Shown piece after piece: positions 5,886-50,632 of a stretch of DNA of 64,000 bases (position 1 is its first letter; the number at the start of each line of letters is the position of its first letter). Position numbers and translations under genes: made by a program. Origin of the DNA: Antedon mediterranea (lineage: Eukaryota; Animalia; Echinodermata); contig NC_092672.1 of the NCBI RefSeq assembly GCF_964355755.1, forward strand, positions 31,068,437 to 31,132,436, given 5' to 3'. The notes beneath the pieces were generated by a model. That model searched no databases. It worked only from the letters and a program-made list of their open reading frames with translations, and was not told the origin of the DNA.

Positions 5886-6422
5886 TCAATAAACAATATT
5901 GGTAGTACCAATTGATTTTTGTGTATTCGTTTCTTGTATGCCAAATTTAAGAAAATCGGTAAACATGACAGGGCCGTTTTCACCCACCTCCTGAATTGGA
6001 GTACAATAATTGAGGGTATTATCTCCAAAAACCTCTTGTGAAGCAACGTCAATGACTCCACCAGTGCTTCCTACTTCTCGTGATGCTGTAGCGCCAGCGA
6101 CTCCGGTGTTTTCCTCGTTTAGTGATGCTGCAGCGCCAGCGACTCCAGTGAGTTCCTCTTTTTGTGATGCCGAAGCGCCAGCAACTCCAGTGAGTTCCTC
6201 TTTTTGTGATGCCGAAGCGCCAGCAACTCCAGTGTGGTCCTCGTTTAGTGATGCTGCAGCGTCTTGTCCTGTAGCGCCGCCGGGGACATCTTCAGCTTCT
6301 TGTTGTAAAACAGCATCGACGGTATCGTTGTTTGTAACTATGATGGAAACACCACCGCTTCCATTAAGCCGGATCTCAATTCTAATATGTATGTCTTCTT
6401 CTTCTCTTCTTCTTCTTTCCAT
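5886..6422 (-). CDS. Type A family copy A1, main exon; stop-loss adds a short C-terminal extension
   Basis: ttacag|ATG acceptor, MERRRREEEDIHIRIEIRL..., 14-aa repeats, NYCTPIQEVGE and LKFGIQETNTQ; TAA of the paralogs is AAA here; frame also open upstream to ATG 6485. Confidence 0.75.
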   Translation of the reverse strand: MERRRREEEDIHIRIEIRLNGSGGVSIIVTNNDTVDAVLQQEAEDVPGGATGQDAAASLNEDHTGVAGASASQKEELTGVAGASASQKEELTGVAGAAASLNEENTGVAGATASREVGSTGGVIDVASQEVFGDNTLNYCTPIQEVGENGPVMFTDFLKFGIQETNTQKSIGTTNIVY

Positions 6423-6501
6423 CTGTAACGTTATATAAAATATCAAGTACAGTATAATAATAAACACATTCACGATATGAGTCATGGGTATACATTATGT
6501 A

Positions 6502-6945
6502 CACTGTAAACTAGTGTAGTAGTAATAATATTAGATCTTAAACATTATTTTGTATCCACTTTTACACACATTTATAGCTTTTAAACACGTAGTTACATGT
6601 TTAGCGTGTTTAAAACTTAAACGTGTTTAAAGCTACATGTTATTTTCCTCCACTTTGCAGTCAACATGTCACTATTATGTTCAGTCAACATGTAGGTACG
6701 TGTTTAGCGTTGAGACATACGATACGGAGGAAAAAAGATCCATACATGGCAAATTAAACAGGTTTGATACCTAAACGTGTCTTTATATTGCTACACATGT
6801 TTAACATGCAATCAACACAGACGTCACTGATGTGTTGAGTTGGATACAGACTACATGTTCATATCTAAACATGTTTAAGCTAAATGTGTAGAAAAGATGA
6901 GTATACAAAATACATCATTAAGATCAAAACTCTGCTTTTACAGTG
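6502..6945. mobile_element. MITE (CACT...AGTG ends, TA flanks) in the type A intron; also 9100-9544, 11701-12145, 14618-15062 and a truncated copy near 42923-42985
   Basis: TA|CACTGTAAA ... TTTACAGTG|TA, with further imperfect inverted similarity inside. Confidence 0.75.
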
Positions 6946-6963
6946 TATGACTACTTCAATTAC

Positions 6964-7050
6964 CTCTTTTAGTAAATACAGAGGTGAGTATGGTGTTTCG
7001 GTAGGGATTCGCAAGATTATTGACATTTGCAAATAAATTTGGTACGCCAT
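6964..7050 (-). CDS. Type A copy A1, putative first coding exon (29 aa)
   Basis: MAYQIYLQMSIILRIPTETPYSPLYLLKE, 87 nt, then GAG|gtaatt phase-0 donor matching the phase-0 acceptor at 6422; in-frame stop lies upstream of the ATG. Confidence 0.55.
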
Positions 7051-8426
7051 GAGAGAGCCTGTACACTACTTTTCAACTCCGCCGCACCCTTCTGGAGAAG
7101 AGGCTATATTAATTAATATGCATAAATTACTAATTTTATACATACAAATATATAAGAAGAAAACTGTATAAGAAATGTGATCCACTATACCGACTGAAAA
7201 AGTTAAATTCATTTTTCATTTTATTTCTACATTCGCTAGAAATGAGTTACCAGGGATCATCTCAATATAGATGGTTATTGGCCTATCCACTGTGCTGCAG
7301 ATAATATCTGGAGTTTCCTCTGGTGGTAAGATGATCCCTGGATTCGTCACTTTGCACCGTTTGCGGGTTGTGCTATTAATAGTTCATCTTTTTGGTGGGT
7401 AGTAAGCTCCACCTAGCTATCGAGTCGAAAAAATCCTGCATACATTGCATGAATGAACCGTGTTCCTTACAACATTATTCTCATTTATAGGTCCATGCTC
7501 ACACTATGATTTTAACAAGTAGTTTTAGTGTCTACCAAAATTATCAATAAACTGTTATATGATGTGCTCATTATATAAAATAATTGTTTTTTAATTATCG
7601 TATTCGATTATGTAAATTTGTAGTTGAAATGTTATTTTTTTTTTAAATTAATATAAAACTATTCATTGATTTTTCAGATATCTGTTCATTATTTTATCTT
7701 TTAGTAAGATCATGGAGGAATGAATTAATTCCTCTGAGTAGGTGTACTGCAGAAGTTGGTCGAAAAGAGCCGTCGCCGCCTTGCCATTCCTCTAAGAATA
7801 TGGTTTGTGGCATAATATATCCTGGATTTATGAAGCGCCTAATGTTGTGAAACATCAGCTAATTTTGCTGTGTGTGTATGAACATTATCAAGAACCGGCA
7901 TCCGTAGCCTAGTATGTTACTGTAGAGAAACAATAAATCGAGATCAATTCCTGCTCCCTAGTGTATCTTGAAAATTCCTAGATTATCTGCTGTAGGCCTC
8001 AATTAATTCCTTTCAATTTGGCTGCTAAAAGTCACAATGATTTCGTAGTATTTTTCGTATGTGCAAACCCACCAACTACATGCTTCCAATAAAGTACGAA
8101 ATGGACTGTGATCATATTCTAGGTGTGATAACTGTTTAAACAAACATTAATTTAAATATCTAAGTATCGAATATAGTGTGTGATAACACAGTCTTATCTT
8201 TCAAAATTACAATAGGCAAATTCCTAATTCCAAATTTCACAACAAAAAACAAACAAACAAAATACTAAGTTATGAGTTATTTATTACAAGTTGTTTTGTA
8301 AATAGCAAAATTTACTCAAATTGCATCTGCAAAGAGTTTAAAAAAACTTATATATATGTATAATCAGTAAAATTATATTAATAATTGTTCTGCCATAAAT
8401 TCAATAAACAATTGGTAGTACCATGA

Positions 8427-9020
8427 TTATTGTGTATTCGTTTCTTGTATGCCAAATTTAAGAAAATCGGTAAACATGACAGGGCCGTTTTCACCCACCT
8501 CCTGAATTGGAGTACAATAATTGAGGGTATTATCTCCAAAAACCTCTTGTGAAGCAACACCAATAACTCCACTAGTGCGTCCTACTTCTCGTGATGCTGT
8601 AGCGCCAGCGACTCCGGTGTTTTCCACTTTCTGTGATGCTGCAGCGCCAGCGACTCCGACGTGTTCCTCTTTTTGTGATGCAGCAGCGCTAGCGACTCCG
8701 GTGCTTTCCACTTCTTGTGATGCTGCAGAAGCGTCAGCGACTTCGGTATTTTCCCCTTCTTGTGATGCTGCAGCGCCAGCAACTCCAGTGAGTTCCTCTT
8801 TTTGTGATGCCGAAGCGCCAGCAACTCCAGTGTGGTCCTCGTTTAGTGATGCTGCAGCGTCTTGTCCTGTAGCGCCGCCGGGGACATCTTCAGCTTTTTG
8901 TTGTAAAACAGCATCGGCGGTATCGTTGTTTGTAACTATGATGGAAACACCACCGCTTCCATTAAGCCGGATCTCAATTCTAATATGTATGTCTTCTTCT
9001 TCTCTTCTTCTTCTTTCCAT
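8427..9020 (-). CDS. Type A family copy A2, main exon
   Basis: Intact ORF after ttacag acceptor, ends LKFGIQETNTQ-stop; frame open upstream to ATG 9083. Confidence 0.78.
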   Translation of the reverse strand: MERRRREEEDIHIRIEIRLNGSGGVSIIVTNNDTADAVLQQKAEDVPGGATGQDAAASLNEDHTGVAGASASQKEELTGVAGAAASQEGENTEVADASAASQEVESTGVASAAASQKEEHVGVAGAAASQKVENTGVAGATASREVGRTSGVIGVASQEVFGDNTLNYCTPIQEVGENGPVMFTDFLKFGIQETNTQ

Positions 9021-9566
9021 CTGTAAAATAATATAAAATATCAAGTAAAGTATAATAATAAACAAATTCACGAGATGAGTCATGGGTATACATTATGTAC
9101 ACTGTAAACTAGTGTAGTAGTAGTAATATTAGATCTTAAACATTATTTTGTATCCACTTTTAAACACATTTATAGCTTTTAAACACGTAGTTACATGTTT
9201 AGCGTGCTTAAAACCTAAACGTGTTTAAAGCTACATGTTGTTTTCCTCCACTTTGCAGTCAACATGTCACTATTATGTTCAGTCAACATGTTTAGGTACG
9301 TGTTTAGCGTTGGGACATACGATACAGAAAAAAGATTCATACATGGCAAATTAAACAGGTTTAATACCTAAACCTGTCTTTATATTGTTACACATGTTTA
9401 ACATGCAATCAACACAGACGTCACTGATGTGTTGTGTTGGATACAGACTACATGTTCATATCTAAACATGTTTTTAAGCTAAATGTGTAGAAAAGATGAG
9501 TATACAAAATACATGTTTAAGATCTAAACTCTGCTTTTACAGTGTATGACTTATGACTTCAATTAC

Positions 9567-9653
9567 CTCTTTTAGTAAATACAGAGGTGAGTATGGTGTT
9601 TCGGTAGGCATTCGCAAGATTATTGACATTTGCAAATAAATTTGGTGCGCCAT
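9567..9653 (-). CDS. Type A copy A2, putative first coding exon
   Basis: MAHQIYLQMSIILRMPTETPYSPLYLLKE then gtaatt donor, phase 0. Confidence 0.55.
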
Positions 9654-11027
9654 GAGAGAGCCTGTACACTACTTTTCAACTCCGTCGCACCCTTCTGGAG
9701 AAGAGGCTATTAATTAATATGCATAAATTACTAATTTTATACATACAAATATATAAGAAGAAAACTGTATAAGAAATGTGATCCACTACACCGACTGAAA
9801 AAGTTAAATTCATTTTTCATTTTATTTCTACATTCGCTAGAAATGAGTTACCAGGGATCATCTCAATATAGATGGTTATTGGCCTATCCACTGTGCTGCA
9901 GACAATATCTGGAGTTTCCTCTGGTGGTAAGATGATCTCTGGATTCATCACTTTGCACCGTTTGCGGGTTGTGCTATTAATAGTTTATCTTTTTGGTGGG
10001 TAGTAAGCTCCACCTAGCTATCGAGTCGAAAAAATCCTGCATACATTGCATGAATGAACCGTGTTCCTTACAACATTATTCTCATTTATAGGTCCATGCT
10101 CACACTATGATTTTAACAAGTAGTTTTAGTGTCTACCAAAATTATCAATAAACTGTTATATGATGTGCTCATTATATAAAATAATTGTTTTTTAATTATC
10201 GTATTCGATTATGTAAATTTGTAGTTGAAATGTTATTTTTTTTTAAAATTAATATAAAACTATTCATTGATTTTTCAGATATCTGTTCATTATTTTATCT
10301 TTTAGTAAGATCATGGAGGAATGAATTAATTCCTCTGAGTAGGTGTACTGCAGAAGTTGGTCGAAAAGAGCCGTCGCCGCCTTGCCATTCCTCTAAGAAT
10401 ATGGTTTGTGGCATAATATATCCTGGATTTATGAAGCGCCTAATGTTGTGAAACATCAGCTAATTTTGCTGTGTGTGTATGAACATTATCAAGAACCGGC
10501 ATCCGTAGCCTAGTATGTTACTGTAGAGAAACAATAAATCGAGATCAATTCCTGCTCCCTAGTGTATCTTGAAAATTCCTAGATTATTTGCTGTAGGCCT
10601 CAATTAATTCCTTTCAATTTGGCTGCTAAAAGTCACAATGATTTCGTAGTATTTTTCGTATGTGCAAACCCACCAACTACATGCTTCCAATAAAGTACGA
10701 AATGGACTGTGATCATATTCTAGGTGTGATAACTGTTTAAACAAACATTAATTTAAATATCTAAGTATCGAATATAGTGTGTGATAACACAGTCTTATCT
10801 TTCAAAATTACAATAGGCAAATTCCTAATTCCAAATTTCACAACAAAAAACAAACAAACAAAATACTAAATTATGAGTTATTTATTACAAGTTGTTTTGT
10901 AAATATCAAAATTTACTCAAATTGCATCTGCAAAGAGTTTAAAAAAACTTATATATATGTATAATCAGTAAAATTATATTAATAATTGTTCTGCCATAAA
11001 TTCAATAAACAATTGGTAGTACCATGA

Positions 11028-11621
11028 TTATTGTGTATTCGTTTCTTGTATACCAAATTTAAGAAAATCGGTAAACATGACAGGGCCGTTTTCACCCACC
11101 TCCTGAATTGGAGTACAATAATTGAAGGTATTATCTCCAAAAACCTCTTGTGAAGCAACACCAATGACTCCACTAGTGCGTCCTACTTCTCGTGATGCTG
11201 TAGCGCCAGCGACTCCGGTGTTTTCCACTTTCTGTGATGCTGCAGCGCCAGCGACTCAGACGTGTTCCTCTTTTTGTGATGCAGCAGCGCTAGCGACTCC
11301 GGTGCTTTCCACTTCTTGTGATGCTGCAGAAGCGTCAGCGACTTCGGTATTTTCCCCTTCTTGTGATGCTGCAGCGCCAGCAACTCCAGTGAATTCCTTT
11401 TTTTGTGATGCCGAAGCGCCAGCAACTCCAGTGTGGTCCTCGTTTAGTGATGCTGCAGCGTCTTGTCCTGTAGCGCCGCCGGGGACATCTTCAGCTTCTT
11501 GTTGTAAAACAGCATCGGCGGTATCGTTGTTTGTAACTATGATGGAAACACCACCGCTTCCATTAAGCCGGATCTCAATTCTAATATGTATGTCTTCTTC
11601 TTTTCTTCTTCTTCTTTCCAT
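11028..11621 (-). pseudogene. Type A family copy A3, main exon with premature stop
   Basis: GGA of A2/A4 is TGA at 11256-11258, removing both C-terminal motifs; the rest is nearly identical to A2/A4. Confidence 0.75.
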
Positions 11622-12167
11622 CTGTAAAATAATATAAAATATCAAGTAAAGTATAATAATAAACAAATTCACGAGATGAGTCATGGGTATACATTATGTA
11701 CACTGTAAACTAGTGTAGTAGTAGTAATATTAGATCTTAAACATTATTTTGTATCCACTTTTAAACACATTTGTAGCTTTTAAACACGTAGTTACATGTT
11801 TAGCGTGCTTAAAACCTAAACGTGTTTAAAGCTACATGTTGTTTTCCTCCACTTTGCAGTCAACATGTCACTATTATGTTCAGTCAACATGTTTAGGTAC
11901 GTGTTTAGCGTTGGGACATACGATACGGAAAAAAGATCCATACATGGCAAATTAAACAGGTTTAATACCTAAACGTGTCTTTATATTGCTACACATGTTT
12001 AACATGCAATCAACACAGATGTCACTGATGTGTTGTGTTGGATACAGACTACATGTTCATATCTAAACATGTTTTTAAGCTAAATGTGTAGAAAAGATGA
12101 GTATACAAAATACATGTTTAAGATCTAAACTCTGCTTTTACAGTGTATGACTTATGACTTCAATTAC

Positions 12168-12254
12168 CTCTTTTAGTAAATACAGAGGTGAGTATGGTGT
12201 TTCGGTAGGCATTCGCAAGATTATTGACATTTGCAAATAAATTTGGTGCGCCAT
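12168..12254 (-). CDS. Type A copy A3, putative first coding exon
   Basis: Same 87-nt ATG-to-donor exon as in A2. Confidence 0.45.
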
Positions 12255-13944
12255 GAGAGAGCCTGTACACTACTTTTCAACTCCGTCGCACCCTTCTGGA
12301 GAAGAGGCTATATTAATTAATATGCATAAATTACTAATTTTATACATACAAATATATAAGAAGAAAACTGTATAAGAAATGTGATCCACTATACCGACTG
12401 AAAAAGTTAAATTCATTTTTCATTTTATTTCTACATTCGCTAGAAATGAGTTACCAGGGATCATCTCAATATAGATGGTTATTGGCCTATCCACTGTGCT
12501 GCAGATAATATCTGGAGTTTCCTCTGGTGGTAAGATGATCCCTGGATTCGTCACTTTGCACCGTTTGCGGGTTGTGCTATTAATAGTTTATCTTTTTGGT
12601 GGGTAGTAAGCTCCACCTAGCTATCGAGTCGAAAAAATCCTGCATACATTGCATGAATGAACCGTGTTCCTTACAACATTATTCTCATTTATAGGTCCAT
12701 GCTCACACTATGATTTTAACAAGTAGTTTTAGTGTCTACCAAAATTATCAATAAACTGTTATATGATGTGCTCATTATATAAAATAATTGTTTTTTAATT
12801 ATCGTATTCGATTATGTAAATTTGTAGTTGAAATGTTATTTTTTTTTTAAATTAATATAAAACTATTCATTGATTTTTCAGATATCTGTTCATTATTTTA
12901 TCTTTTAGTAAGATCATGGAGGAATGAATTAATTCCTCTGAGTAGGTGTACTGCAGAAGTTGGTCGAAAATAGTTCATCTTTTTGGTGGGTAGTAAGCTC
13001 CACCTAGCTATCGAGTCGAAAAAATCCTGCATACATTGCATGAATGAACCGTGTTCCTTACAACATTATTCTCATTTATAGGTCCATGTTCACACTATGA
13101 TTTTAACAAGTAGTTTTAGTGTCTACCAAAATTATCAATAAACTGTTATATGATGTGCTCATTATATAAAATAATTGTTTTTTTTTATTTTTCAGATATC
13201 TGTTCATTATTTTATCTTTTAGTAAGATCATGGAGGAATGAATTAATTCCTCTGAGTAGGTGTACTGCAGAAGTTGGTCGAAAAGAGCCGTCGCTGCCTT
13301 GCCATTCCTCTAAGAATATGGTTTGTGGCATAATATATCCTGGATTTATGAAGCGCCTAATGTTGTGAAACATCAGCTAATTTTGCTGTGTGTGTATGAA
13401 CATTATCAAGAACCGGCATCCGTAGCCTAGTATGTTACTGTAGAGAAACAATAAATCGAGATCAATTCCTGCTCCCTAGTGTATCTTGAAAATTCCTAGA
13501 TTATCTGCTGTAGGCCTCAATTAATTCCTTTCAATTTGGCTGCTAAAAGTCACAATGATTTCGTAGTATTTTTCGTATGTGCAAACCCACCAACTATATG
13601 CTTCCAATAAAGTACGAAATGGACTGTGATCATATTCTAGGTGTGATAACTGTTTAAACAAACATTAATTTAAATATCTAAGTATCGAATATAGTGTGTG
13701 ATAACACAGTCTTATCTTTCAAAATTACAATAGGCAAATTCCTAATTCCAAATTTCACAACAAAAAACAAACAAACAAAATACTAAATTATGAGTTATTT
13801 ATTACAAGTTGTTTTGTAAATATCAAAATTTACTCAAATTGCATCTGCAAAGAGTTTAAAAAAACTTATATATATGTATAATCAGTAAAATTATATTAAT
13901 AATTGTTCTGCCATAAATTCAATAAACAATTGGTAGTACCATGA

Positions 13945-14538
13945 TTATTGTGTATTCGTTTCTTGTATGCCAAATTTAAGAAAATCGGTAAACATGACAG
14001 GGCCGTTTTCACCCACCTCCTGAATTGGAATACAATAATTGAGGGTATTATCTCCAAAAACCTCTTGTGAAGCAACACCAATGACTCCACTAGTGCGTCC
14101 TACTTCTCGTGATGCTGTAGCGCCAGCGACTCCGGTGTTTTCCACTTTCTGTGATGCTGCAGCGCCAGCGACTCCGACGTGTTCCTCTTTTTGTGATGCA
14201 GCAGCGCTAGCGACTCCGGTGCTTTCCACTTCTTGTGATGCTGCAGAAGCGTCAGCGACTTCGGTATTTTCCCCTTCTTGTGATGCTGCAGCGCCAGCAA
14301 CTCCAGTGAGTTCCTTTTTTTGTGATGCCGAAGCGCCAGCAACTCCAGTGTGGTCCTCGTTTAGTGATGCTGCAGCGTCTTGTCCAGTAGCGCCGCCGGG
14401 GACATCTTCAGCTTTTTGTTGTAAAACAGCATCGGCGGTATCGTTGTTTGTAACTATGATGGAAACACCACCGCTTCCATTAAGGCGGATCTCAATTCTA
14501 ATATGTATGTCTTCTTCTTCTCTTCTTCTTCTTTCCAT
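13945..14538 (-). CDS. Type A family copy A4, main exon
   Basis: Intact ORF with NYCIPIQEVGE and LKFGIQETNTQ-stop; frame open upstream to ATG 14601. Confidence 0.78.
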   Translation of the reverse strand: MERRRREEEDIHIRIEIRLNGSGGVSIIVTNNDTADAVLQQKAEDVPGGATGQDAAASLNEDHTGVAGASASQKKELTGVAGAAASQEGENTEVADASAASQEVESTGVASAAASQKEEHVGVAGAAASQKVENTGVAGATASREVGRTSGVIGVASQEVFGDNTLNYCIPIQEVGENGPVMFTDFLKFGIQETNTQ

Positions 14539-15084
14539 CTGTAAAATAATATAAAATATAAAGTAAAGTATAATAATAAACAAATTCACGAGATGAGTCA
14601 TGGGTATACATTATGTACACTGTAAACTAGTGTAGTAGTAGTAATATTAGATCTTAAACATTATTTTGTATCCACTTTTAAACACATTTGTAGCTTTTAA
14701 ACACGTAGTTACATGTTTAGCGTGCTTAAAACCTAAACGTGTTTAAAGCTACATGTTGTTTTCCTCCACTTTGCAGTCAACATGTCACTATTATGTTCAG
14801 TCAACATGTTTAGGTACGTGTTTAGCGTTGGGACATACGATACGGAAAAAAGATCCATACATGGCAAATTAAACAGGTTTAATACCTAAACGTGTCTTTA
14901 TATTGCTACACATGTTTAACATGCAATCAACACAGACGTCACTGATGTGTTGTGTTGGATACAGACTACATGTTCATATCTAAACATGTTTTTAAGCTAA
15001 ATGTGTAGAAAAGATGAGTATACAAAATACATGTTTAAGATCTAAACTCTGCTTTTACAGTGTATGACTTATGACTTCAATTAC

Positions 15085-15171
15085 CTCTTTTAGTAAATAC
15101 AGAGGTGAGTATGGTGTTTCGGTAGGCATTCGCAAGATTATTGACATTTGCAAATAATTTTGGTGCGCCAT
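15085..15171 (-). CDS. Type A copy A4, putative first coding exon
   Basis: MAHQNYLQMSIILRMPTETPYSPLYLLKE then gtaatt donor. Confidence 0.55.
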
Positions 15172-15946
15172 GAGAGAGCCTGTACACTACTTTTCAACTC
15201 CGCCGCACCCTTCTGGAGAAGAGGCTATATTAATTAATATGCATAAATTACTAATTTTACACATACAAATATATAAGAAGAAAACTGTATAAGAAATGTG
15301 ATCCACTACACCGACTGAAAAAGTTAAATTCATTTTTCATTTTATTTCTACATTCGCTAGAAATGAGTTACCAGGGATCATCTCAATATAGATGGTTATT
15401 GGCCTATCCACTGTGCTGCAGATAATATCTGGAGTTTCCTCTGGTGGTAAGATGATCCCTGGATTCGTCACTTTGCACCGTTTGCGGGTTGTGCTATTAA
15501 TAGTTTATCTTTTTGGTGGGTAGTAAGCTCCACCTAGCTATCGAGTCGAAAAAATCCTGCATACATTGCATGAATGAACCGTGTTCCTTACAACATTATT
15601 CTCATTTATAGGTCCATGTTCACACTATGATTTTAACAAGTAGTTTTAGTGTCTACCAAAATTATCAATAAACTATTATATGATGTGCTCATTATATAAA
15701 ATAATTGTTTTTTAATTATCGTATTCGATTATGTAAATTTGTAGTTGAAATGTTATTTTTGTTTTAATTAATATAAAACTATTCATTGATTTTTCAGATA
15801 TCTGTTCATTATTTTATCTTTTAGTAAGATCATGGAGGAATGAATTAATTCCTCTGAGTAGGTGTACTGCAGAAGTTGGTCGAAAAGAGCCGTCGCCGCC
15901 TTGCCATTCCTCTAAGAATATGGTTTGTGGCATAATATATCCTGGA

Positions 15947-16106
15947 TTTATGAAGCGCCTAATGTTGTGAAACATCAGCTAAGCGCTGTACACTTTAATA
16001 ACGTTAAATAACGATAGTGACACGCAATGCGACAAAGTTGGATTCGAACCCATGACTCGCGATCAGTAGGCCTAGTCCCGAAATCAAACACTGTGTCATT
16101 ACATGG
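15947..16106 (-). mobile_element. Degenerate tRNA-headed SINE with L2-type 3' tail; paralogous copies about 43696-43880 and 43970-44230
   Basis: Minus-strand B-box GGTTCGAATCC near 16040-16050; tail TGTACAGCGCTTAG...GGCGCTTCATAAA resembles the L2 3' stem-loop. Confidence 0.6.
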
Positions 16107-23760: not shown

Positions 23761-25323
23761 GTTGTTGATTGACACAGTGGTAGGAATTGTACTAAAAGTG
23801 TTGTTTTATGTAGGCCTACTCAAAACGGCGTGAAATCAATACAGATAATTATGATGCACAAATCAGGCCCGTAGGCAGGATTGCTATGGAGTAGTTCGAA
23901 TTAAAGTACCACGATTGTATTAAAAAATCCAAAGATTTACCTGAAGATTAACCGAATGTACAAACAATAATTTATTTAATTCTGAATGTAGTCCACAGTG
24001 TTAAATTGTCTTTGATGTTATCATTGAATTATTGCTTTAAACATTAACAAGTATTTTTCTTTTTAATTAAAATGACTGCATTCCGTAGTGCATACATTAA
24101 ATAGTCTTAAAAAATAGGGTGGGTATTGTTTAAATGTATTTGTTATTTAACATTGGGTACAATACTTGGATAATGTTTAGTGGTTAAATGCACATGTAAT
24201 GATAGGCTATTAGGAAGGGGTGTTGTTAACATTGGAACATCATTGAGATTAAACGTTTTCCGGGAAAAATATGTACAGAAGAAAACAGATTATAAGTGAT
24301 CTTTTAAGATCCATAATAATAATAATAAATGCCATGGAAGTGAGAATAAGCAAAGCCCAAACAGATCTCACTCTATATTACAGTAAACAATTTATCAGTT
24401 TAAATGAATAATTATACATATCAAACTAAAATAATAATGGCTTTAATAGAATTATTTTATATCGTCAAACACAGTGTTTGGTCAGAGAAGCTGTAATATT
24501 GAAATTGTTGTGAAAAAAAGTGAATTCACTTGATATTTGTTCCCATAGTCATGGAATTATAGAATTAATAACAAAAGTAAAAGCATCTGCCATTAATTGT
24601 AATCATTAGTACTGTACTTAAACTATACAGTACTTACAATCTATTAGTCTGGGTTCCAGACGGAGTCTTGTCTTAATTTAGTAAAAAGATAAATATTTTT
24701 GCACATATGGCGTTTCATACGTATACTACTTGGTTTGGATATTTTCAGACAAAAATCGAAATAAAAAGAAATAAAATAAATAAATAGACAATGAATACAG
24801 ACTTGGGGCAAGTCTAGCAATCTATCTGCAATACTTGGATATGTTCTGCGGGTACTCACTGGTGATCAACAATGAGTGTGTTCAACCGCAAAATTACTCT
24901 CATAAAACTATAGTATACAGGAACATATCGTGAATTTGAAGTAGTAGGACTGTTTGCCCAAATTACCCGTCCCGTTTGAAATCTGTACAATTTATACTTA
25001 AACTGAAAATGTGTCAACAACTTTTGTAATAAAATCTCAGAGTACATTGATTCTAATGAGTACCATACGATACAATAATTACTATTACATGATCATCAGT
25101 AATTATTAATCTTCAGAAAAGCATGGTCTACTGGTCTATGGTCTACTTGTGTCCCAAACAGAAGACCATTCAGGTTCGAATCACGCATCATCCTCTCGCA
25201 AAGATGCTCGTTGCTCCAAATTAAAATGTACAAATAAAGTTCTTATACATTCGCTAAATGATGATACGATTGAATTGTTCCATTCCATGAAATACACAAT
25301 AAACAATTGATAGTATCAATTGT

Positions 25324-25611
25324 TTATTGTGTATTTGTTTCTTGTATACCGAATTTAAGATCGTCTTCGCCAACTTCTTGGATAGGAGGGCAATAATTGA
25401 CGGCGGCACCGTTGTCTTCAAAAACTCCATTGCTTCCTGAAGCTGTGCCGGATGCATTATCGTTGTTGTTCTCGTCTTGTGAACCAACATCGTTGTTTCC
25501 AACCTCTTCAATAGAAAAAGCACCGCCTCCAACTCTAAGCCAAAACTTGTCGATGCCGATTTGTATATCTTCCTCTTTAATCCCAGTATTGTTTAGTTCG
25601 TGATCTCCCAT
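25324..25611 (-). CDS. Type B family copy B1 (95 aa from the ATG in the main exon)
   Basis: ttttactttcacag|ccATGG acceptor and strong start context; EEDIQIGI, FSIEEVG, NYCPPIQEVGE, LKFGIQETNTQ-stop shared with type A. Confidence 0.78.
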   Translation of the reverse strand: MGDHELNNTGIKEEDIQIGIDKFWLRVGGGAFSIEEVGNNDVGSQDENNNDNASGTASGSNGVFEDNGAAVNYCPPIQEVGEDDLKFGIQETNTQ

Positions 25612-25909
25612 GGCTGTGAAAGTAAAATATAATTATAATGACATTGATTACTGATTTCTTCACACTTATCATTTATTAATTTACTTATTCACTTCTATAT
25701 CTCTATACAAACCGAGATTAATAATTACTGTATATATTTAAACCATCGTTGCCTCGTCTGTTTTTTTTTTTAACCTCTCGCTACGACCTTGAGTATTATT
25801 GGTAGTAGGACTTTAGTAATAGCAGTATTGTTTTTTATGTTATTGCAAACGGTATACATACTAAAATTTAAGTTTTTGTAGATACCGTACTCATATATTT
25901 ATACCATAC

Positions 25910-26022: not shown

Positions 26023-27723
26023 TATTCTCAATATTTAAACACTAACTACAACTTAATTTACAACAAAAATAACACTTTTTTGCCTATTTAATATCAGTGC
26101 GTTGTGCCCAGGATAACACGGTTGGTATAAACAAACATAAGTTTAACAATAGATTTATTTATTTATTTATTTCGTTTTCTTTCTGGTATAAACAAACATA
26201 AGTTTAACAATAGATTTATTTATTTATTTATTTCGTTTTCTTTCAGTAGGGTAGCTCTCTCAGTAATAAAATAAAACTGCTCTTCCGAGGGGCCCTAGAT
26301 AATTATCAACTTTCGAGCATTGTTTACTTAGGTGATGACGAAGCAAAAAGAAAAGGCTAGACACGCGGGGATTGGGATAAAAAAAAAACAACTCGGTTTT
26401 TTATACTCGTATCAAAACACTTTACATTAAGTGAAATGATTTTTTTGAATTACAAATTATAATGTTTGCCACTCGCAAATAATAACAGATACATTCTTAA
26501 TAACTTCCTGAAAATAACTGTTTTTCTGTTATATCCCGCCGTTCGGCGAAATCGCTCGGATTTTTGGGTACATAAAACAAATTGTGCGGATCAATCGAAT
26601 AAATCGACGGCAATCCTGTCATGTGTCAGCGTAATAGATAGTTAGCGTAATAAATAGTTAGCGATAGTTAGCGTAATTAGGCCTAATGCCTTCTGTTGTG
26701 ATCTGAGGGTGCTCACCGCAGCCTTAATATAATAATGCTCATAAGCTCTCACAAGTAAATCTAAACACTCATTGAATTATTGTTTTAAACATTAACAAGT
26801 ATTTTTCTTTTAAATTAAAATGACTGCATTCCGCCTTGTTAGTACATTTGAATAGTCTTTGCTAGGTTTGCGTTAAAATAGGGCAGATTTTGTTTTTAAA
26901 TGGTTGCTAATTTGCATAACAATGTAATGAAGGAAAATGTATTGCATATGGTACTGGTACTGCACCTATGGTAGAGGTGTCATATTTTATTTTCAAAATC
27001 GCCTCTACTCAACTACAACCATGGTGGGGCTAAGTTGGTGTGGACTCTAAAGTTTCTCCCTCCCCACAGCCCCACTCATCCAAAACTCATCCCCGCCGCG
27101 GCTAGTGTAATGGGATGAATTTGTACTTAAAAGTATAAATATGTTATAAATATATTAATTAACTATAATAACTATAATAAAGACCAAACTATAATTTGAT
27201 TAAATCCTAATTTATCAAACGATATGCACAACTTACTGTTATTATTATAGGAACCTGAAAAAGGGTGTCTCAGTGTTACTATGTAGAATATCCACCGAAT
27301 ATCCAATTTAATATTACTGCAGGCCTATTACCTGTACCTGTTTAAAGGTCCAGGTCGCGGATGTATAACATTTCAGTAAGTAGATTTGTTACATATAATG
27401 TGTTCTGTAACCAAGGTACTTAAAATGTCTAAAAATAACTGAAATATTCGATATATCCGAGTGTTTTAGATTCTACATTAAAGTAATTAAGCCTACCTTC
27501 GATATGCAAAGATTACGTATGATATAAGAACAAAACAAGAATGACGTAAACCATCTACTTTTTCAATTTTTCGCCAACTACACTGCCCATAGGCAACTGC
27601 ACGAATACAACGCACTTCTAAATTAGAATAGTATACACTGCTCTGACACACCTTTACTGTCAATCTTTCTATCTAAATAATTTGTTTAGCCAATCGGCAT
27701 TGAATACCAAAACAAATTATTCT

Positions 27724-42342: not shown

Positions 42343-42843
42343 TTATTGTGTATTCGTTTCTTGTATGCCAAATTTAAGAAAATCGGTAAACATGACATGG
42401 CCGTTTTCACCCACCTCCTGAATAGGAGGACAATAATTGAAGCTATTGCTGTCTTCGAAAACCTCTTGTGAAGCAACGCCAATGACTCCACCAGTGCTTC
42501 CTACTTCTCGTGATGCTGCTCCAGCGCCAGCGACTCCAGTGGTTTCCACTCCATGTGATGCAGCTGCGCTAGCAACTCCGGTGCTTTCCGCTTCTTGTGA
42601 TGCTGCAGAAGCGTCAGCGACTTCGGTGTTTTCCACTTCTTGTGATGCTGCAGCGCCAGTGACTTCGGTGTGTGCTGCAGCGTCTTGTCCTGTAGCGCCG
42701 CCGGGGACATCTTCAGCTTCTTGTTGTAAAACAGCATCGGCGGTATCGTTGTTTGTAACTATGATGGAAACACCACCGCTTCCATTAAGCCGGATCTCAA
42801 TTCTAATATGTATGTGTTCTTCTTCTCTTCTTCTTCTTTCCAT
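42343..42843 (-). CDS. Type A family copy A5 (diverged), main exon
   Basis: Intact ORF with only in-frame indels relative to A1-A4; NYCPPIQEVGE and LKFGIQETNTQ-stop; frame open upstream to ATG 42906. Confidence 0.75.
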   Translation of the reverse strand: MERRRREEEHIHIRIEIRLNGSGGVSIIVTNNDTADAVLQQEAEDVPGGATGQDAAAHTEVTGAAASQEVENTEVADASAASQEAESTGVASAAASHGVETTGVAGAGAASREVGSTGGVIGVASQEVFEDSNSFNYCPPIQEVGENGHVMFTDFLKFGIQETNTQ

Positions 42844-45469
42844 CTGTAAAGTAATATAGAATATCAAGTACAGTATAATAATAAAGAAATTCATGATATG
42901 AGTCATGGGTATACACTATGTACACTGTAAATTAGTGTAGAAGTAGTAATAATATTAGATCTTACACATATATTGTATCCATTTTTCCAAATAAATTTGG
43001 TACGCCATGTACGCTATGTGACCATGTCGTCTGAGTATACACTACTTTCTTCTGGAGAAGAGGCTATTTTTATTAAGTAAGCCTTACATTCTTCATATGC
43101 AGAAATTACTTTTTATGTAAGAAAACAAGAATATAACAAGAAAAATGTATAATAAATTGTATCCACTACACAGACTGAAAACGTTAAATTAATTTTGCAT
43201 TTTATTTCAACATTCGCTAGAAATGATTTATCATGGATCACTCAATTTAGATGATTATTGGCCTATATCCACTTTTCTGTAGATAATTTCAGGAGTTTTA
43301 CCTGGTAAGATGATACCTGAATTCATCAGGTTGCGAGGAATCCCGATTACATGCTTTTAATACCTTTTGTTGGTGAGCCTTGTTACAAAACATACTGTTC
43401 GATTTCCTCACACTTTGATTATAACAAGTAGTTTTAGTGTCTACCAAATTTATAAATATATATTTTTCTAATTATCGTATTCGATTATGTAAATTCGTAG
43501 TGGGTTTTTTTTCAGAATTAACAAAAATGTATTCATTGATTTTTCAGATATCTGTTCACTACCGATATTTTACCTTTTTTAGTAAGATCATGGATGAATG
43601 AATGAAGTAAGTACTGCTAAAGTTTAGTCGAAAAGAACCGCCGCCGCCTTGCAATTCCTCTTACAATATGGTTTGTGGCATAATATATCCTGGATTTATA
43701 TAGCGCCTAATGTTGTGAAACCTCAACTAAGCGCTGTACATTACCCAGTCATTTTTAACGTATGGTAACATACTCCTATAATCCAGTTAGTAATCATTGG
43801 AAAGTTGTGTCTTGACCTTACTGTGTACCCATCTGTACACCCGGGTCGAGAGAGGCAAACGTTAAGTAAGGATAGTAAAGTAGACCTACTGCTAAAGTTT
43901 AGTCGAAAAGAACCGCCGCCGCCTTGCCATTCCTCTTACAATATGGTTTGTGGCATAATATATCCTGGATTTATATAGCGACTAATGTGGTGAGACATCA
44001 GCTAAGCATTTTTTTGCGTCGTGACGTGTATGGAAACATACTCCCATAATCTAGTGTTAGTAATCAGCGCAAAGTTGTGGCTTGACCTTACTGGGTACCT
44101 ATTTGTACACCCGGGTCGAGAGAGAATAGTGAGTAAGTAAGGATAGTGAAACGCAATGCGACGACCGTTGGATTTGAACCCACGATCTCACGATCATTGT
44201 CCCGAAAGTCCGACTGTGTCATTACATGGAGGCAAGAGTATATAAAATATTTGGTGGCGGATCTCGCAAAACGTATTTCATTTATTTATGACAAAAACAT
44301 AACTTAATATGGTAAAATCTTATTATGTCTATATTAAATAAATAATAACAACTAACTATATATAACGATATATAATATGCATAACTTACTGTTATGAGCA
44401 GCAGGAAAAAAAGAAAAAATGATGGCGATGTCCAAGTGTATGCAGAAGAAAATTCACGAGTGACCAATAAATACAAGTTAAAGTTAAAACATTGATGATG
44501 TCCTGGTACGGACGTATGTTTTAATTTTTATAGGAGGTAAGTCGAGTGACTGGATGTGCGTTACGAAACATTAGAATCTACCAAGTCTCACATAATGTGT
44601 GCTGTATCCTAAGTCACTGTATTGAGTGCCTAAAAATAACTGAAAACCCATAGATATATCCAAGTATTTTAGATCTGCTAAAAACTCAAATAAGCCTATC
44701 TAAGTTTTTAGATCAAAGTGTTGGATTATATTGTATACCTGAAAACTCATGAAAAAGTGGATCATTCCGTCCTAAATTACGTCAGGTAAACATGACATTG
44801 TAGGATGTCAATGTCATTGTATGATGTCAATATGAAAAGATGCTTAGAAATAATACTTGCAAAGAATACAGGAAAGTACAAACCCGCCGCAAACAATGAA
44901 TAGATCGCAGAGAAAACAGTCAATGAACACGACTATTCATATAAAGTGATAATAATAATTCAATAATAATTGCTCTCCTGTCACAAATGCATTTGTCAAC
45001 AAGTTATGATCCGTAACAACGGATTAACAAAAAGTTTATAATTCATTATTATGTTTTTAAATTACAAATTATAATGTTTGCCACTCGAAAATAAAAACAG
45101 ATGGCCTACACTTTTAATAACTTCCTGAAAATAACTATTTTTTCTGTTATATCGCGCCGTTCGGCGTAAATCGCTAGGATTTTTGGGTACACTAAAACAA
45201 ATTGTGTAGATCAATCGAATAAATCGACGGCAATCCTGTCGTGTGTGGATAGTTAGTTAGCGTAATAGATAGTTAGCGTAATAGATAGTTAGCGTAATTA
45301 GGCCTAATGCCTTCTGTTGTGATCTAAGCATGGAGGTATAAATTTATGCCTCCATGATCTGAGGGTGCCCACCGCAGCCTTAATATAATAATGATCATAA
45401 GCTCTCATAAGTAAATCTAAACACTCATTGAATTATTGTTTTAAACATTAACAAGTATTTTTCTTTTAA

Positions 45470-45740
45470 ATTTGAGAAATAATATTTAATAAATTGATTA
45501 CAAATATCTATTTTAGATGTAATGGTATTGTCATTTATTGTAAGTTGTTTGGGATAGTTTCGACTTGACTTAGGGGATAAAACAGAATTAATAATGGACC
45601 AGTTTTTTTTAAGATTGCTTTTGACCATGTCAAATTGTAAAGAAAAATAATTCTTTTTTGCAGTGTGCGGCAAAGCTTATTAAACATATTGTTATATTTT
45701 GTGTATGTTAGTTTGCGATTAGGATCTTGTGATAAAATAA
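45470..45740 (-). mobile_element. LINE ORF2 fragment
   Basis: YTKYNNMFNKLCR and KSNLKKNWSIINSVL resemble the pre-RT linker of L2/CR1 elements; frameshifted. Confidence 0.6.
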
Positions 45741-46706: not shown

Positions 46707-48805
46707 GAAAGCCCATTAATGCCATTTTAAGTGTATGTTTTTCGAGCGTTCTAAAGTAGTAATTCGTTTAAACGGATTAATGACAAAATAATTCGTTTAA
46801 CCAGATTAGTAATCCGTTCAAATGGATTACTAATTTGTTCAAACGGATTAGTAATTTGTTCAAACGAATTAATTATTAATTCGTTCAAACAAATTAGTAA
46901 TCCGTTTAAACGAATTAGTAATTCGTTTGAACAGATTATTAATCCGTTGAAACAAATTAGTAATTCGTTTAAACAGATTATTAATCCGTTCAAACAAATT
47001 AGTAATTCGTTTAACCAGATTAGTAATCCGTTCAAACAAATTAGTAATTCGTTTAACCAGATTAGTAATCCGTTCAAATGAATTAATAATTTGTTTAAAA
47101 GAATTATTAATCAGTTCAAATTTATAATTCGTTTGACCGGATTTGATTTGTTTCAACGGATTACTAATCTGTTTGAACAGATTACTAATTCGTTCAAACG
47201 AATTAGCAATCCGTTTAAACAAATTAATAATTCTTTTAAACGGATTACTAATTTGTTCAAACGAATTAGTAATCTGTTTGAACAAATTAGTAATTCGTTT
47301 GAACGAATTAGTAATCCGTTTAAACAAATTATTAATTTGTTTTAACAAATTAGTAATTTGTTTAAACGGATTACTAATTCGTTCAAACGAATTACTAATT
47401 CGTTCAAACAGATTACTAATTCGTTTGAACGAATTAGTAATTCGTTGAAACAAATTAGTAATTCGTTGAAACAAATTAGTAATCCGTTTAAAAAATTAGT
47501 AATCCGTTTAAACAAATTACTAATCCGTTTGGACGGATTCCTAATTCGTTTGAACAGATTATTAATCTGTTTAAAGAAATTAGTAATTCGTTTGAACGGA
47601 TTAGTAATCTGTTCAAACGAATTAGTAATCCGTTCAAACAAATCAGTAATTCGTTTGAACGGATTAGTAATCCGTTCAAACCAATTGCAACATATACAAC
47701 AAGTGCCATTTAAAGTATATGTTGTAATCCGTTCAAACGAATTACAACATATACTTTAAATGGCACTTGTTGTATACTGTATGTTGCAATTCGTTTGAAC
47801 AGATTATTAATCCGTTCAAACGAATTACTAATTCGTTAGAACGGATTACGTTCGAAAAACATATACTTAAAATGGCATTAATGGGCTTTCGTAATATTAT
47901 AATCATGAATCATTCCTGATTCAAATGCAAAATGTGCAAATAGATCAAAAACTATTTTGTTTTTATTGTTTTGTAGTTACGAATATGACTGGTGATATTC
48001 GTCAACACGAATACGCTTTACGAATATGAAATGGGGATCAGCCCAAAGGTTTCACAAATGTATGACGTATCCGTTTTCGTTATCGTATTCGTAAGGTTGC
48101 GAAACGTCCCTATTAATCCGTTTAAACAAATTAGCAATTCGTTTGAACGGATTACTAATCCGTTCAAATGAATTGCGACATATACTTTAAATGGCACTTG
48201 TTGTATATGTTGCAATTCGTTTGAAAGAATTACTAATTCGTTTGAACAGATTATTAGGGAGTTTTCGCAACCTTACGAAACTTTTGAGCTGATCCCCATT
48301 TCATATTCGTAAAGCGTATTCGTGTTGACGAATATTACCAGTAATATTCGTAACTACAAAACGAGTATAGTTTTTGATCTATTTTGCACATTTTGCATTT
48401 GAATCAGGAATGATTCATGACTATAATATAATTATACCTTTATTGAAAGTAATTTACTAAAGTAATTTACTAAAATGCCAGTTCAATTTTGATAAATAGC
48501 AGTTTTTAAAGTCCTCACTCGCTTTGATGTTACGCTAGGCCTAGGCAGCCAAGCAACACGTACCTGCGCTTCGCTCAAATTTACCGCAGTCATATTTTGG
48601 ACGGCGCCCTTAGTATTTCGTTGCCATGCGAAACAGATTTTTACTGGCTTACGAAAAACGAATACGTGTGCGTGGCGTATCCGTTGTCGTTATCGTATTC
48701 GTAAGGTTGCGAAATCTCCCTATTAATCCGTTCAAACGAATTACAAATTCGTTTAAACGGATTACGTTCGAAAAACATATACTTAAAATGGCATAAATGG
48801 CTTTC
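46707..48805. repeat. Composite foldback element with 21-bp minisatellite (ATTAGTAATTCGTTTAAACAG-like) in mixed orientations, plus a nested MITE (48256-48721) and an inverted fragment of it
   Basis: Terminus GAAAGCCCATTAATGCCATTTTAAGT at 46707 with complements ending at 47890 and 48805; absent from paralogous sites near 23900 and 36480. Confidence 0.85.
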
Positions 48806-50239
48806 GTATCCGATTGTATTAAACAAATCCAAAAAGATTTATCTGAAGATTAACCGAATGTACAAACAATTTATTTAATTCTGAATGTAGTCCACAATGT
48901 CTTGTCTTTGAGATTATCATTGAATTATTGCTTTAAACATTAACAAGTATTTTCCTTTTAAATTAAAATGACTGCATTCCGTAGTGCATACATTAAATTG
49001 TCTTAAAAATAGGGTGGGTATTGTTTAAATGTATTTATTATTTAAAATTGGGTACAATACTTGGATAATGTTTAGCGGTTAATGCACATGCAATGATAGC
49101 CTATTAGGAAGGAGTATTGGTAAAATTTGAGATTAAACGTTTTCAGAGAATCGACAAAATATGTACAGAAGAAAACAGATTATAAGTGATCTTTTAAGAT
49201 CCATAATAATAATAATAAATAAAATAATAAATAAATGCCATCGAAGTGAGAATAAGCAAAGCCCAAACAGATCTCACTCTATATTACAGTAAACAATTTA
49301 TCAGTTTAAATGAATAAATATATATTATATCAAACTAAAAAAATAATGGTTTAATACAATTATTTTATATCGTTAAATACAGTGTTTGGTCAGAGAAGCT
49401 GTAATATTGAAATTGTTGGTGACCATTCACTTGATATTAATTGTTCCCATGGTCATGGAATTATAGAATTAATAATAAAAGTAAAAGCATCTGCCATTAA
49501 TTGTAATCATTAGTACTGTACTTAAACTATATATACAGTACTTGCAATCTATTAGTCTGGGTTCCAGACAGAGTTTTGTCAAAATTTAGTAAAAAGATAA
49601 ATATTTTTGCACATATGGCGTTTCATACGTATACTACTTGGTTTGGATATTTTCAGACAAAAATCGAAATAAAAAGAAATAAAATAAATAAATAGACAAT
49701 GAATACAGACTTGGGGCAAGTTTAGCAATCTATCTGCAATACCTGGATATGTTCTGCGGGTACTCACTGGTGATCAACAATGAGTGTGTTCAACCGCAAA
49801 ATTACTCTCATAAAACTATAGTATCTCTAATAATACAGGAACATATCGTGAATTTGAAGTAGTAGGACTGTGGCCCAAATTAAGTCCCGTTTGAAATCTG
49901 TACAATTTATACTTAAACTGAAAATGTGTCAATAACTTTTATAATAAAATCTCAGAGTACATTGATTCTAATGAGTACCATACGATACAATAATTACTAT
50001 TACATGATCATCAGTAGGCCTAATTATTAATCTTCAGAAAAGCATGGTCTACTGGTCTATGGTCTACTTGTGTCCCAAACAGAAGACCATTCAGGTTCGA
50101 ATCACGCATCATCCTCTCGCAAAGATGCTCGTTGCTCCAAAGTAAAATGTACAAATAAAGTTCTTATACACTCTCTAAATGATAATACGATTGTTCCATT
50201 CCATGAAATACACAATAAACAATTGATAGTATCAATTGT

Positions 50240-50632
50240 TTATTGTGTATTTGTTTCTTGTATACCAAACTTAAGATTGTCTTCGCCAACTTCTTGGATA
50301 GGAGGGCAATAATTGACGGCGGCACCATTGTCTTCAAAAACTCCATTGTTTCCTGCTGAAGCTGCGCCGGCGGCGTTGCCGTTGTCTTCAAACACTCCAT
50401 TGCTTCCTAAAGCTGCGCCGGCGGCGGCACCGTTGTCTTCTAAAACTCCATTGCTTCCTGAAGCTGCGCCGGGTGCATTGTCGTTGTTGTTCTCGTCTTG
50501 TGAACCAACATCGTTGTTTCCAACCTCTTCAATAGAAAAAGCACCGCCTCCAACTCTAAGCCAAAACTTGTCGATGCCGATGTTTATATCTTCGTCTTTA
50601 ATCCCAGTATTGTTTAGTTCGTGATCTCCCAT
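50240..50632 (-). CDS. Type B family copy B2 (130 aa)
   Basis: tactttcacag|ccATGG; same domains as B1 with three copies of the GAASGSNGVFEDNG-like unit instead of one. Confidence 0.78.
   Translation of the reverse strand: MGDHELNNTGIKDEDINIGIDKFWLRVGGGAFSIEEVGNNDVGSQDENNNDNAPGAASGSNGVLEDNGAAAGAALGSNGVFEDNGNAAGAASAGNNGVFEDNGAAVNYCPPIQEVGEDNLKFGIQETNTQ

What the first reader, a model, noticed from the sequence alone, without database searches (positions are those of the whole stretch)
5886..50632. Expanded family of small ectodomain-less proteins with TNF-receptor-like TRAF-binding tails
Seen: seven same-strand copies (A1-A5, B1-B2) share a short hydrophobic motif, an acidic low-complexity linker and the tail NYCxPIQEVGE...LKFGIQETNTQ; type B adds FSIEEVG and the type A linker contains ASQE. 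Established: the major TRAF2 consensus is (P/S/A/T)x(Q/E)E, e.g. OX40 PIQEE, CD27 PIQED, Fn14 PIEET, CD30 SVEE, CD40 PVQET. PIQE, SIEE and ASQE fit it; GIQET resembles PVQET but lacks the proline. No cysteine-rich, death or TIR domain exon is visible. Inference: a lineage-specific cluster of multivalent TRAF scaffolds, decoys or receptor mimics evolving by birth and death. The consensus is short, so chance matches cannot be excluded.
Basis: partly seen in the sequence, partly recalled or inferred. Interest (0 to 1): 0.85.

Follow-up and report, generated by a model that had tools for sequence, protein, structure and literature searches.

The report
Receptor-free TRAF-motif mini-protein cluster
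An invertebrate genome carries seven copies of a small orphan coding exon whose 22-residue tail has been kept unchanged by selection and contains a TNF-receptor-type TRAF docking motif, so the intact copies likely encode receptor-free adaptors or decoys of immune signalling, although binding and expression are untested.

Summary
The seven minus-strand ORFs are real (five type A, 166-197 aa; two type B, 95 and 130 aa). Their shared tail is under purifying selection: between A5 and B, 9 of 9 differences in 22 codons are synonymous third-position changes (p 5e-5). Each ORF opens with an ATG 0-2 bases behind a splice acceptor; A5 and B1 share a candidate upstream non-coding exon. No cysteine-rich, death or TIR exon was found on this strand, and no homologue in any database searched. 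Same-species DNA contigs show further, diverged paralogues outside the window. The family is turning over: A1-A4 are one young 2.6-kb tandem array, A3 has an internal stop, A1 lost its stop. PIQE fits the TRAF1/2/3/5 major motif in all seven, but chance gives such a match in 5-10% of shuffled tails; ASQE is a by-product of a 42-bp repeat and GIQET fits no consensus. Best reading: disordered, receptor-free TRAF-docking adaptors or decoys (about 40%). Binding and expression remain untested. A real, apparently undescribed orphan family; the TRAF function is a lead, not a result.

The parts
5886..6422 (-). A1 ORF, 178 aa; stop codon lost (TAA read AAA), 10-residue extension
8427..9020 (-). A2 ORF, 197 aa, open
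11028..11621 (-). A3 ORF with in-frame TGA at codon 122, ahead of the tail: likely pseudogene
13945..14538 (-). A4 ORF, 197 aa, open
42343..42843 (-). A5 ORF, 166 aa, open; the most complete type A locus
25324..25611 (-). B1 ORF, 95 aa, open; SIEE at 33-36, PIQE at 76-79
50240..50632 (-). B2 ORF, 130 aa, open; 51-bp repeat expansion in the linker; shared upstream block not found
25327..25398 (-). Conserved tail of B1 (NYC...TNTQ), under purifying selection against type A
42346..42438 (-). Conserved tail of A5, with a 7-residue insertion relative to B
6043..15982 (-). Young tandem array of four 2.6-kb units holding A1-A4, 96-99% identical
42844..42906 (-). In-frame upstream ATG plus 21 hydrophobic codons before the type A start (also 6423-6485, 9021-9083, 11622-11684, 14539-14601): possible membrane-anchored isoform, or just the pyrimidine tract of the intron
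44384..44500 (-). Candidate non-coding first exon of A5 ending in a GTAAGT donor at 44389, TATAAAA at 44532 (inferred)
27231..27330 (-). Candidate non-coding first exon of B1 ending in a GTAAGT donor at 27236; 20 of 21 bases around the donor equal to A5
44583..44782 (-). Conserved non-coding upstream block, 95% identical to 16905-17105 (above A4) and 76% over 111 nt to 27396-27498 (above B1): candidate promoter or enhancer
25290..25336 (-). Perfect hairpin (22-bp stem, 3-base loop) across the stop codon of B1; the same at 50206-50252 in B2; shorter and imperfect in type A

Best explanation
These are coding exons of a lineage-restricted, fast-turning-over gene family whose intact members likely encode small, largely disordered cytosolic proteins that likely dock on TRAF2/3-type adaptors through PIQE (and SIEE in type B) and so would act as receptor-free decoys or scaffolds of TNF-receptor/NF-kB signalling. 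Shown: seven copies, two deep lineages, purifying selection on the tail, no ectodomain exon on this strand of the window, broken young copies, more paralogues elsewhere. Predicted: disorder apart from an N-terminal beta-hairpin. Inferred: a two-exon gene with a non-coding first exon, so that the ATG behind the acceptor is the true start. Inferred and untested: TRAF binding. With at most two consensus sites per chain and no proven membrane anchor, competition with receptor tails (damping) is more likely than activation, which needs clustering of several TRAF trimers (PMC6262405 passages).
For: Tail constraint: 9 of 9 (A5 vs B) and 10 of 11 (A1 vs B) differences synonymous in 22 codons; codons for I, Q, E, V and G of PIQEVG each differ silently between A5 and B. 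PIQE fits the major motif Px(Q/E)E in 7 of 7 copies (PMC6125299 passages); the narrower form P[IV]QE, as in CD40 PVQETL of that paper, arises in 0.4% of shuffled tails (pattern chosen after the fact). A second match, SIEE, lies in the block that outside paralogues share best with B1 (25489-25554). Anatomy of a linear-motif protein: net charge -15 to -19, no membrane helix from the acceptor ATG, AlphaFold2 mean pLDDT 43.8 for B1, linkers built of 42- and 51-bp repeats that change length in frame. No ectodomain, death or TIR family in 260 frames. A5 and B1 share a GTAAGT donor 1.5-1.6 kb upstream (20 of 21 bases; 2 of 500 shuffles score as well). TRAF3 and TRAF6 are reported in an echinoderm (PMC13673367 passages); that this genome is a feather star is an earlier, unchecked note.
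Against: The motif is four residues: Px(Q/E)E arises in 4.9% and [PSAT]x[QE]E in 10.3% of shuffled tails. Selection holds all 22 tail residues alike, including LKFGIQETNTQ, which fits no TRAF consensus, so another partner explains the data as well. Type A has lost SIEE. Only two independent lineages could be compared; no relative from another species was found to show which residues matter. Within types, constraint is not significant (A vs A5 dN/dS about 0.6, p 0.09-0.13; B1 vs B2 0.38, p 0.14). A high-depth B-like piece in run X1 differs from B1 by 8 replacements and 1 silent change among the 9 of its 12 differences that were listed, so not all family members are constrained. One outside paralogue has an open frame without Met where B starts (translated by hand), which fits a longer protein.
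Confidence: 0.4

Rival explanations
1. Real small disordered proteins, but the conserved tail and hairpin bind something other than TRAFs (an unknown domain; less likely a TPR co-chaperone through IEEV/IQEV, dynein light chain through GIQ, or SUMO/calcineurin through the IxIxI strand).
For: The repeating unit is I(Q/E)E(V/T), two or three times per chain; the whole tail and the FWLR...SIEEVGNND block are conserved, not just the four TRAF positions. Chance match rate of the TRAF consensus is 5-10%.
Against: TPR-clamp ligands are C-terminal EEVD-like ends (PMC11259706 passages); here IEEV/IQEV is internal and followed by G. The dynein-light-chain, SUMO and calcineurin motifs are recalled, fit only partly, and were not tested.
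Confidence: 0.33
2. The ORFs are last exons of longer genes: cytoplasmic tails of a TNF-receptor-like membrane protein whose other exons lie far upstream, or alternative last exons of the multi-exon gene at 56.8-64 kb.
For: Every ORF begins behind a splice acceptor. The B acceptor is phase 1 and so is the donor of the neighbour's exon at 58831 (my reading of the frames). One outside paralogue is open without Met upstream of the B-like block. The order 'hydrophobic strand, acidic linker, TRAF sites' recalls the last exon of TNFR2, LTbR and RANK (recalled). An earlier unchecked note reports variable exons on a shared exon elsewhere in this genome.
Against: An ATG is the first full codon behind the acceptor in both types, and A (phase 0) and B (phase 1) differ in phase, which suits a non-coding upstream exon. 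No cysteine-rich or death-domain frame on the strand; only 5 in-phase hydrophobic donor candidates over all upstream ranges, none shared between copies, 3 of them in a 21-bp satellite. The neighbour has its own last exon with a stop. A search for longer proteins with this tail found 0 of 4374 candidates (weak evidence by the tool's own note).
Confidence: 0.15
3. A relic family: the tail was constrained in the past, but most or all copies in this window are now silent or neutral duplicates.
For: A3 has an internal stop, A1 lost its stop; the A1-A3 units and B2 lack the conserved upstream block, and A4 lacks the GTAAGT donor; within-type dN/dS 0.4-0.8, not significant; a decayed high-depth piece in run X1.
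Against: 5 of 7 frames are intact with their stop; all length changes inside the ORFs keep the frame except at A1's end; A5 and B1 keep upstream elements; A1-A4 carry a degenerate GTAATT copy of the donor.
Confidence: 0.09
4. RHIM-type amyloid signalling adaptor using the N-terminal IQIG strand.
For: B1 has IQIG at 16-19; the region is a predicted beta-hairpin.
Against: B2 reads INIG, type A has no such core, an outside paralogue reads PYIG, and the xxNxM continuation of RHIMs (recalled) is missing; no Pfam hit.
Confidence: 0.03

Closest known systems
Cytoplasmic tails of non-death-domain TNF receptors (CD40, OX40, CD27, CD30, CD137, Fn14)
   Same: Disordered acidic stretch with one or two Px(Q/E)E-type sites (CD40 PVQETL in PMC6125299, CD137 TTQEE and PEEEE in PMC6262405, passages read; OX40, CD27 and Fn14 motifs recalled). 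TPIQEVGE of type A resembles the recalled Fn14 and OX40 sites.
   Different: No cysteine-rich ectodomain or signal peptide found; no membrane helix in the ORFs from the acceptor ATG; no detectable sequence homology.
TANK/I-TRAF and MAVS (cytosolic TRAF-binding adaptors)
   Same: Receptor-independent proteins that dock on TRAFs through a short motif (TANK SVPIQCTDKT, Kd 2.5-11.7 uM, PMC7215387 passages).
   Different: Single-copy conserved genes with further domains (coiled coil, TBK1-binding, CARD; recalled). Here only motifs and a hairpin, in a multi-copy family with no Pfam hit.
Viral receptor mimics LMP1, StpC and Tio
   Same: Small or ectodomain-less proteins with repeats and TRAF sites that work without ligand (LMP1 as TRAF ligand in PMC6125299 passages; Tio-TRAF6 only as a reference title in PMC8354219; StpC anatomy recalled).
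   Different: Those are viral, membrane-anchored and oligomeric. These are host exons with splice sites; no viral relative found (0 of 2 pattern matches confirmed); an anchor is only a possibility in type A.

Membership tests
TNF receptor superfamily | Extracellular cysteine-rich domains | tested here: not met
   One Cys per ORF; 0 of 260 minus-strand frames hit a TNFR family; exons beyond the window or under 24 codons are not excluded
TNF receptor superfamily | Transmembrane helix before the tail | tested here: inconclusive
   None from the acceptor ATG (hydropathy up to 0.91); type A has an in-frame upstream ATG plus hydrophobic stretch (2.5-2.9), but a real acceptor of the neighbour gene gives 2.7 too; absent in B
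TNF receptor superfamily | Death domain (one subgroup) | tested here: not met
   No Pfam hit in the ORFs or the frames scanned
TRAF1/2/3/5 ligands | Major motif Px(Q/E)E | tested here: met
   PIQE in 7 of 7; chance 4.9% per shuffled tail; in A3 it lies behind a stop
TRAF1/2/3/5 ligands | Minor motifs PxQxT or Px(Q/E)xxD | tested here: not met
   No match in 6 of 6 open proteins scanned; GIQET lacks the proline
TRAF1/2/3/5 ligands | Motif-dependent binding to a TRAF MATH domain | not testable with these tools
   Needs a binding assay; the organism's own TRAFs were not available
TRAF6 ligands | PxExx(aromatic/acidic) | tested here: not met
   No strict match; IQEVGE fits only the relaxed form, seen in 16% of shuffled tails
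RHIM proteins | Conserved (I/V)Q(I/V/L/C)G core with flanking consensus | tested here: not met
   IQIG in B1 only; INIG in B2; none in type A
EEVD-type TPR-clamp ligands | EEVD-like motif at the free C terminus | tested here: not met
   IEEV/IQEV are internal; the chains end in TNTQ
Transposon or viral ORF | Transposase, RT or viral family hit | tested here: not met
   No such Pfam hit in 5 family ORFs, no viral relative; LINE RT fragments in the window are separate

The most novel reading that the evidence does not exclude
An animal genome encodes its own LMP1/StpC-like receptor mimics: free-standing TNF-receptor tails in a membrane-tethered form (type A from the upstream ATG: hydrophobic helix, RRRR, hairpin, linker, PIQE tail) and a soluble form (type B), an activator and decoy pair that tunes TRAF signalling without ligand and turns over by tandem duplication.
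Probability: 0.1. Interest if true: 0.8.

Novelty: new variant of a known kind. Interest (0 to 1): 0.45.

Why it matters
If TRAF binding holds, this would be a host-encoded, multi-copy family of stand-alone 'receptor tails', a design best known from herpesviral mimics, and a direct handle on how invertebrate deuterostomes with large receptor repertoires set the gain of TRAF/NF-kB signalling. If it does not, it is still a constrained orphan family with an unassigned linear motif that gene predictors and domain searches miss. The case rests on a four-residue motif, which caps its present weight.

Tried and rejected
Complex prediction of the B1 tail (41 aa) with a stand-in invertebrate TRAF2-like MATH domain from a metagenome contig (L008; best PDB match human TRAF2, E 1e-68): no answer, score 0.03 against a mark of 0.34, controls not folded, alignments not used; the tool states this is no evidence either way and is untested on peptides. 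Expression: no RNA holder listed among 5 runs; the run guessed to be RNA (X1) covers 30 of 30 bins including introns, so I treat it as DNA; no conclusion on expression. No whole genome is held, so no genome-wide count. Homologue searches: 0 of 1, 0 of 1877 and 0 of 4374 candidates; 3 hits among 1.84 billion representatives, all long repeat proteins of bacterial type (SprB, HYR and similar) matched by summed weak repeats, rejected; ESM Atlas best 0.77, unnamed 31-35 aa clusters; PDB 0; metagenome contigs 0 of 107 and viral contigs 0 of 2 pattern matches confirmed; earlier findings by sequence, none. Rfam 0 hits in the window. A stop-interrupted frame at 6880-7506 in the A unit has no Pfam hit and is frameshifted in A5: rejected as a coding exon. 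A T-rich segment ending at 43112 reads as a membrane helix but is out of phase with the A acceptor and broken in A1/A4: rejected. The open antisense frames over the A exons share third positions with the sense frame and explain fewer changes as silent (7 of 9-10): rejected. Codon-position test of the 21 hydrophobic upstream codons: 6 of 10 variable sites at third positions, inconclusive. The upstream neighbour gene stayed unidentified. Fold searches were not run because both models are of low confidence.
Full report
Setting. The window is 33% GC animal DNA with introns, LINE reverse-transcriptase fragments and satellites. The cluster lies on the minus strand between exons of TRAP-gamma/SSR3 (4543-4749 and 1593-1760, E about 1e-14) and an unidentified multi-exon gene at 56.8-64 kb that has its own last exon and stop. 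Earlier notes on this genome call it a feather star; I did not check that. No whole genome was available.

Observation. A six-frame scan finds PIQE, LKFG and GIQET together at seven minus-strand places; one more PIQE on the plus strand at 5217 has no other feature. The ORFs from the first ATG are A1 5886-6422 (178 aa), A2 8427-9020, A3 11028-11621, A4 13945-14538 (197 codons each), A5 42343-42843 (166 aa), B1 25324-25611 (95 aa), B2 50240-50632 (130 aa). A1-A4 sit in a tandem array of 2.6-kb units that are 96-99% identical. Summed contig depth in run X3 is 646-1181 on the A5 exon and 334 on the B exon, against 124-231 for the unique pieces listed; the tool warns that this is no copy number, but it is in line with several real A copies and two B copies, not with an assembly error. 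A3 has TGA at codon 122 where A2 has GGA, and A1 reads AAA for the stop.

Is it coding? Yes, at least for the tail. In the 22 gap-free codons NYC..GE and LKF..NTQ, A5 differs from B1 and from B2 at 9 sites, all third-position and silent (binomial p 5e-5); A1 differs from B at 11 sites, 10 silent; both shifted sense frames turn every difference into a replacement. The block was picked because it is conserved, but that cannot put the changes at silent sites. The N-terminal block shows weaker constraint (dN/dS about 0.25, p 0.035-0.056, alignment uncertain), and comparisons within a type are not significant (0.21-0.79, p 0.085-0.53).

Gene structure (inferred). Each ATG lies 0 (type A) or 2 (type B) bases behind a YAG acceptor. 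Upstream, A4, A5 and B1 share a non-coding block (16905-17105, 44583-44782, 95%; 27396-27498, 76% over 111 nt), and A5 and B1 share a GTAAGT donor at 44389 and 27236 (20 of 21 bases; 2 of 500 shuffles as good; the 13-base core occurs twice in the window), with TATAAAA at 44532 above the A5 donor. I read this as a non-coding first exon, a 1.5-kb intron and one coding exon. A4 lacks that donor; degenerate GTAATT copies lie at about 7131 in the A units and at 43112; nothing above chance was found upstream of B2 (115 and 77 of 200 shuffles as good). A5 and B1 are therefore the best candidates for complete genes. No ectodomain exon was found: 0 of 147 and 0 of 113 stop-free minus-strand frames hit a TNFR, death or TIR family at E 0.01. 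These scans left out the duplicate units at 7870-15990, the 21-bp satellite, Cys-poor frames under 42 codons, all frames under 24 codons and the plus strand.

Protein anatomy. The chains are acidic (net -15 to -19), have one Cys and no membrane helix. AlphaFold2 gives B1 a mean pLDDT of 43.8. For A5 extended to the upstream ATG it gives a helix at 2-28 (pLDDT 90-96), two strands at 34-40 and 46-52 (about 69), and disorder from 66 on (single sequence). All five A copies have an in-frame ATG 63 bases upstream and 21 hydrophobic codons leading into MERRRR. Of 1360 pyrimidine-rich YAG sites in the window, 8 have such an open hydrophobic frame and 5 also an ATG, and those 5 are the A copies. Against this: one of the other three is the real acceptor of the neighbour's last exon, so intron ends can mimic a helix; type B has nothing like it; and the codon-position test is inconclusive (6 of 10 at third positions). 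I give the anchored isoform about one chance in four.

Family beyond the window. Laying contigs of four runs (two samples) on B1 at 80% likeness showed records of 873, 1240 and 1528-1540 letters that match only 25489-25581, the IGIDKFWLRV...SIEEVGNND block (32 of 55 pieces and 24 of 35 loose ends were shown). Translated by hand, loose ends continue in frame as TADAALLQQE (like type A's TADAVLQQE), begin DQIPYIGID, or run open without Met where B starts. A contig of run X1 matches only KFGIQETNTQ and reads on past it. So intermediates between A and B exist, the SIEE block looks ancestral, and the tail need not be C-terminal. A high-depth B-like piece in X1 looks decayed (8 replacements, 1 silent, among the 9 of 12 differences listed). 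No relative was found in any other organism; the 3 hits are long repeat proteins of bacterial type. These searches are weak for short motifs in low-complexity chains.

The TRAF reading. PIQE fits the major motif in all copies; no minor or strict TRAF6 motif is present. Shuffling the 24-residue tail gives Px(Q/E)E in 4.9%, the wide form in 10.3% and P[IV]QE in 0.4% of 20000 trials; whole type A proteins give at least one wide match in 68-71%, so ASQE, which comes from the 42-bp repeat, carries little weight; two wide matches in type B occur in 2.4%. The match is suggestive, not decisive, and selection does not single out the four TRAF positions. Single peptides bind at 2.5-117 uM and signalling needs clusters of trimers, so a soluble chain with one or two sites would more likely compete than activate; an anchored isoform could do the reverse. 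These steps are inference.

Rivals. Another partner for the same motifs (0.33): TPR-clamp ligands are C-terminal (PMC11259706, passages), which these are not; dynein-light-chain, SUMO and calcineurin motifs are recalled partial fits. Last exons of longer genes (0.15). Relic copies (0.09). RHIM (0.03).

Literature. Searches for TRAF-binding motif with echinoderm and TNFR, PIQE with TRAF and invertebrate, TRAF-binding with missing ectodomain and expansion and amphioxus TNFR motif terms returned 0 papers; the listings showed no such family (titles and abstract starts only). PMC13673367 (passages) reports TRAF3 and TRAF6 in sea cucumbers. PMC8354219 gave only reference titles on StpC and Tio. The library lacks most subscription papers and no supplements were read, so absence from print is not established. 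Motifs of OX40, CD27, Fn14, MAVS, StpC, TNFR2, LTbR and RANK are recalled.

Verdict. [quoted passage not shown] New variant of a known kind; confidence in TRAF docking 0.4; interest 0.45.

Noticed in passing
window 25290-25336 and 50206-50252 (type A: around 42320-42352): A perfect 22-bp hairpin with a 3-base loop spans the stop codon of both B copies (z -6.3 and -5.0, 0 of 200 shuffles as stable). A5 has a shorter stem with a G-C pair where B has A-U. It may be an RNA element or a product of template switching in DNA; no Rfam hit.
   Followed up: partly
window 36661-36858: Perfect palindrome of two 99-base arms with no spacer, at the junction of two duplicated segments.
   Followed up: no
window 56780-63945, minus strand: Multi-exon gene with at least six candidate exons (about 63808-63942, 63380-63496, 62273-62452, 60420-60575, 58831-58929, 56780-56940); no Pfam or Atlas assignment.
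   Followed up: partly
window 4543-4749 and 1593-1760, minus strand: First exons of TRAP-gamma (SSR3), starting about 1.2 kb downstream of A1.
   Followed up: yes
window 46789-47686: Satellite of 43 copies of a self-complementary 21-bp unit that gives long open frames on both strands; summed contig depth far above the unique pieces, so likely a genome-wide repeat.
   Followed up: no
window 33490-33864, 34106-34456, 22028-23264, 45428-45843: Fragments of LINE-type elements (weak RVT_1 hit, E 9e-5, at 33490-33864), some duplicated at 99% within the window.
   Followed up: no
window 23912-25660 and 48811-50673: B1 and B2 lie in a segmental duplication of about 1.8 kb at 91-93% identity that ends some 100-180 bases upstream of the ATG, next to a tRNA-like B-box sequence above B2.
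   Followed up: partly
L001-L117 (metagenome contigs): 48 of 102 in-frame motif matches hold a complete TRAF2/3-type MATH domain in one open frame, all 48 with the RxY site and 40 with the serine triad: the TRAF groove is well kept across the animal hosts in these samples.
   Followed up: partly
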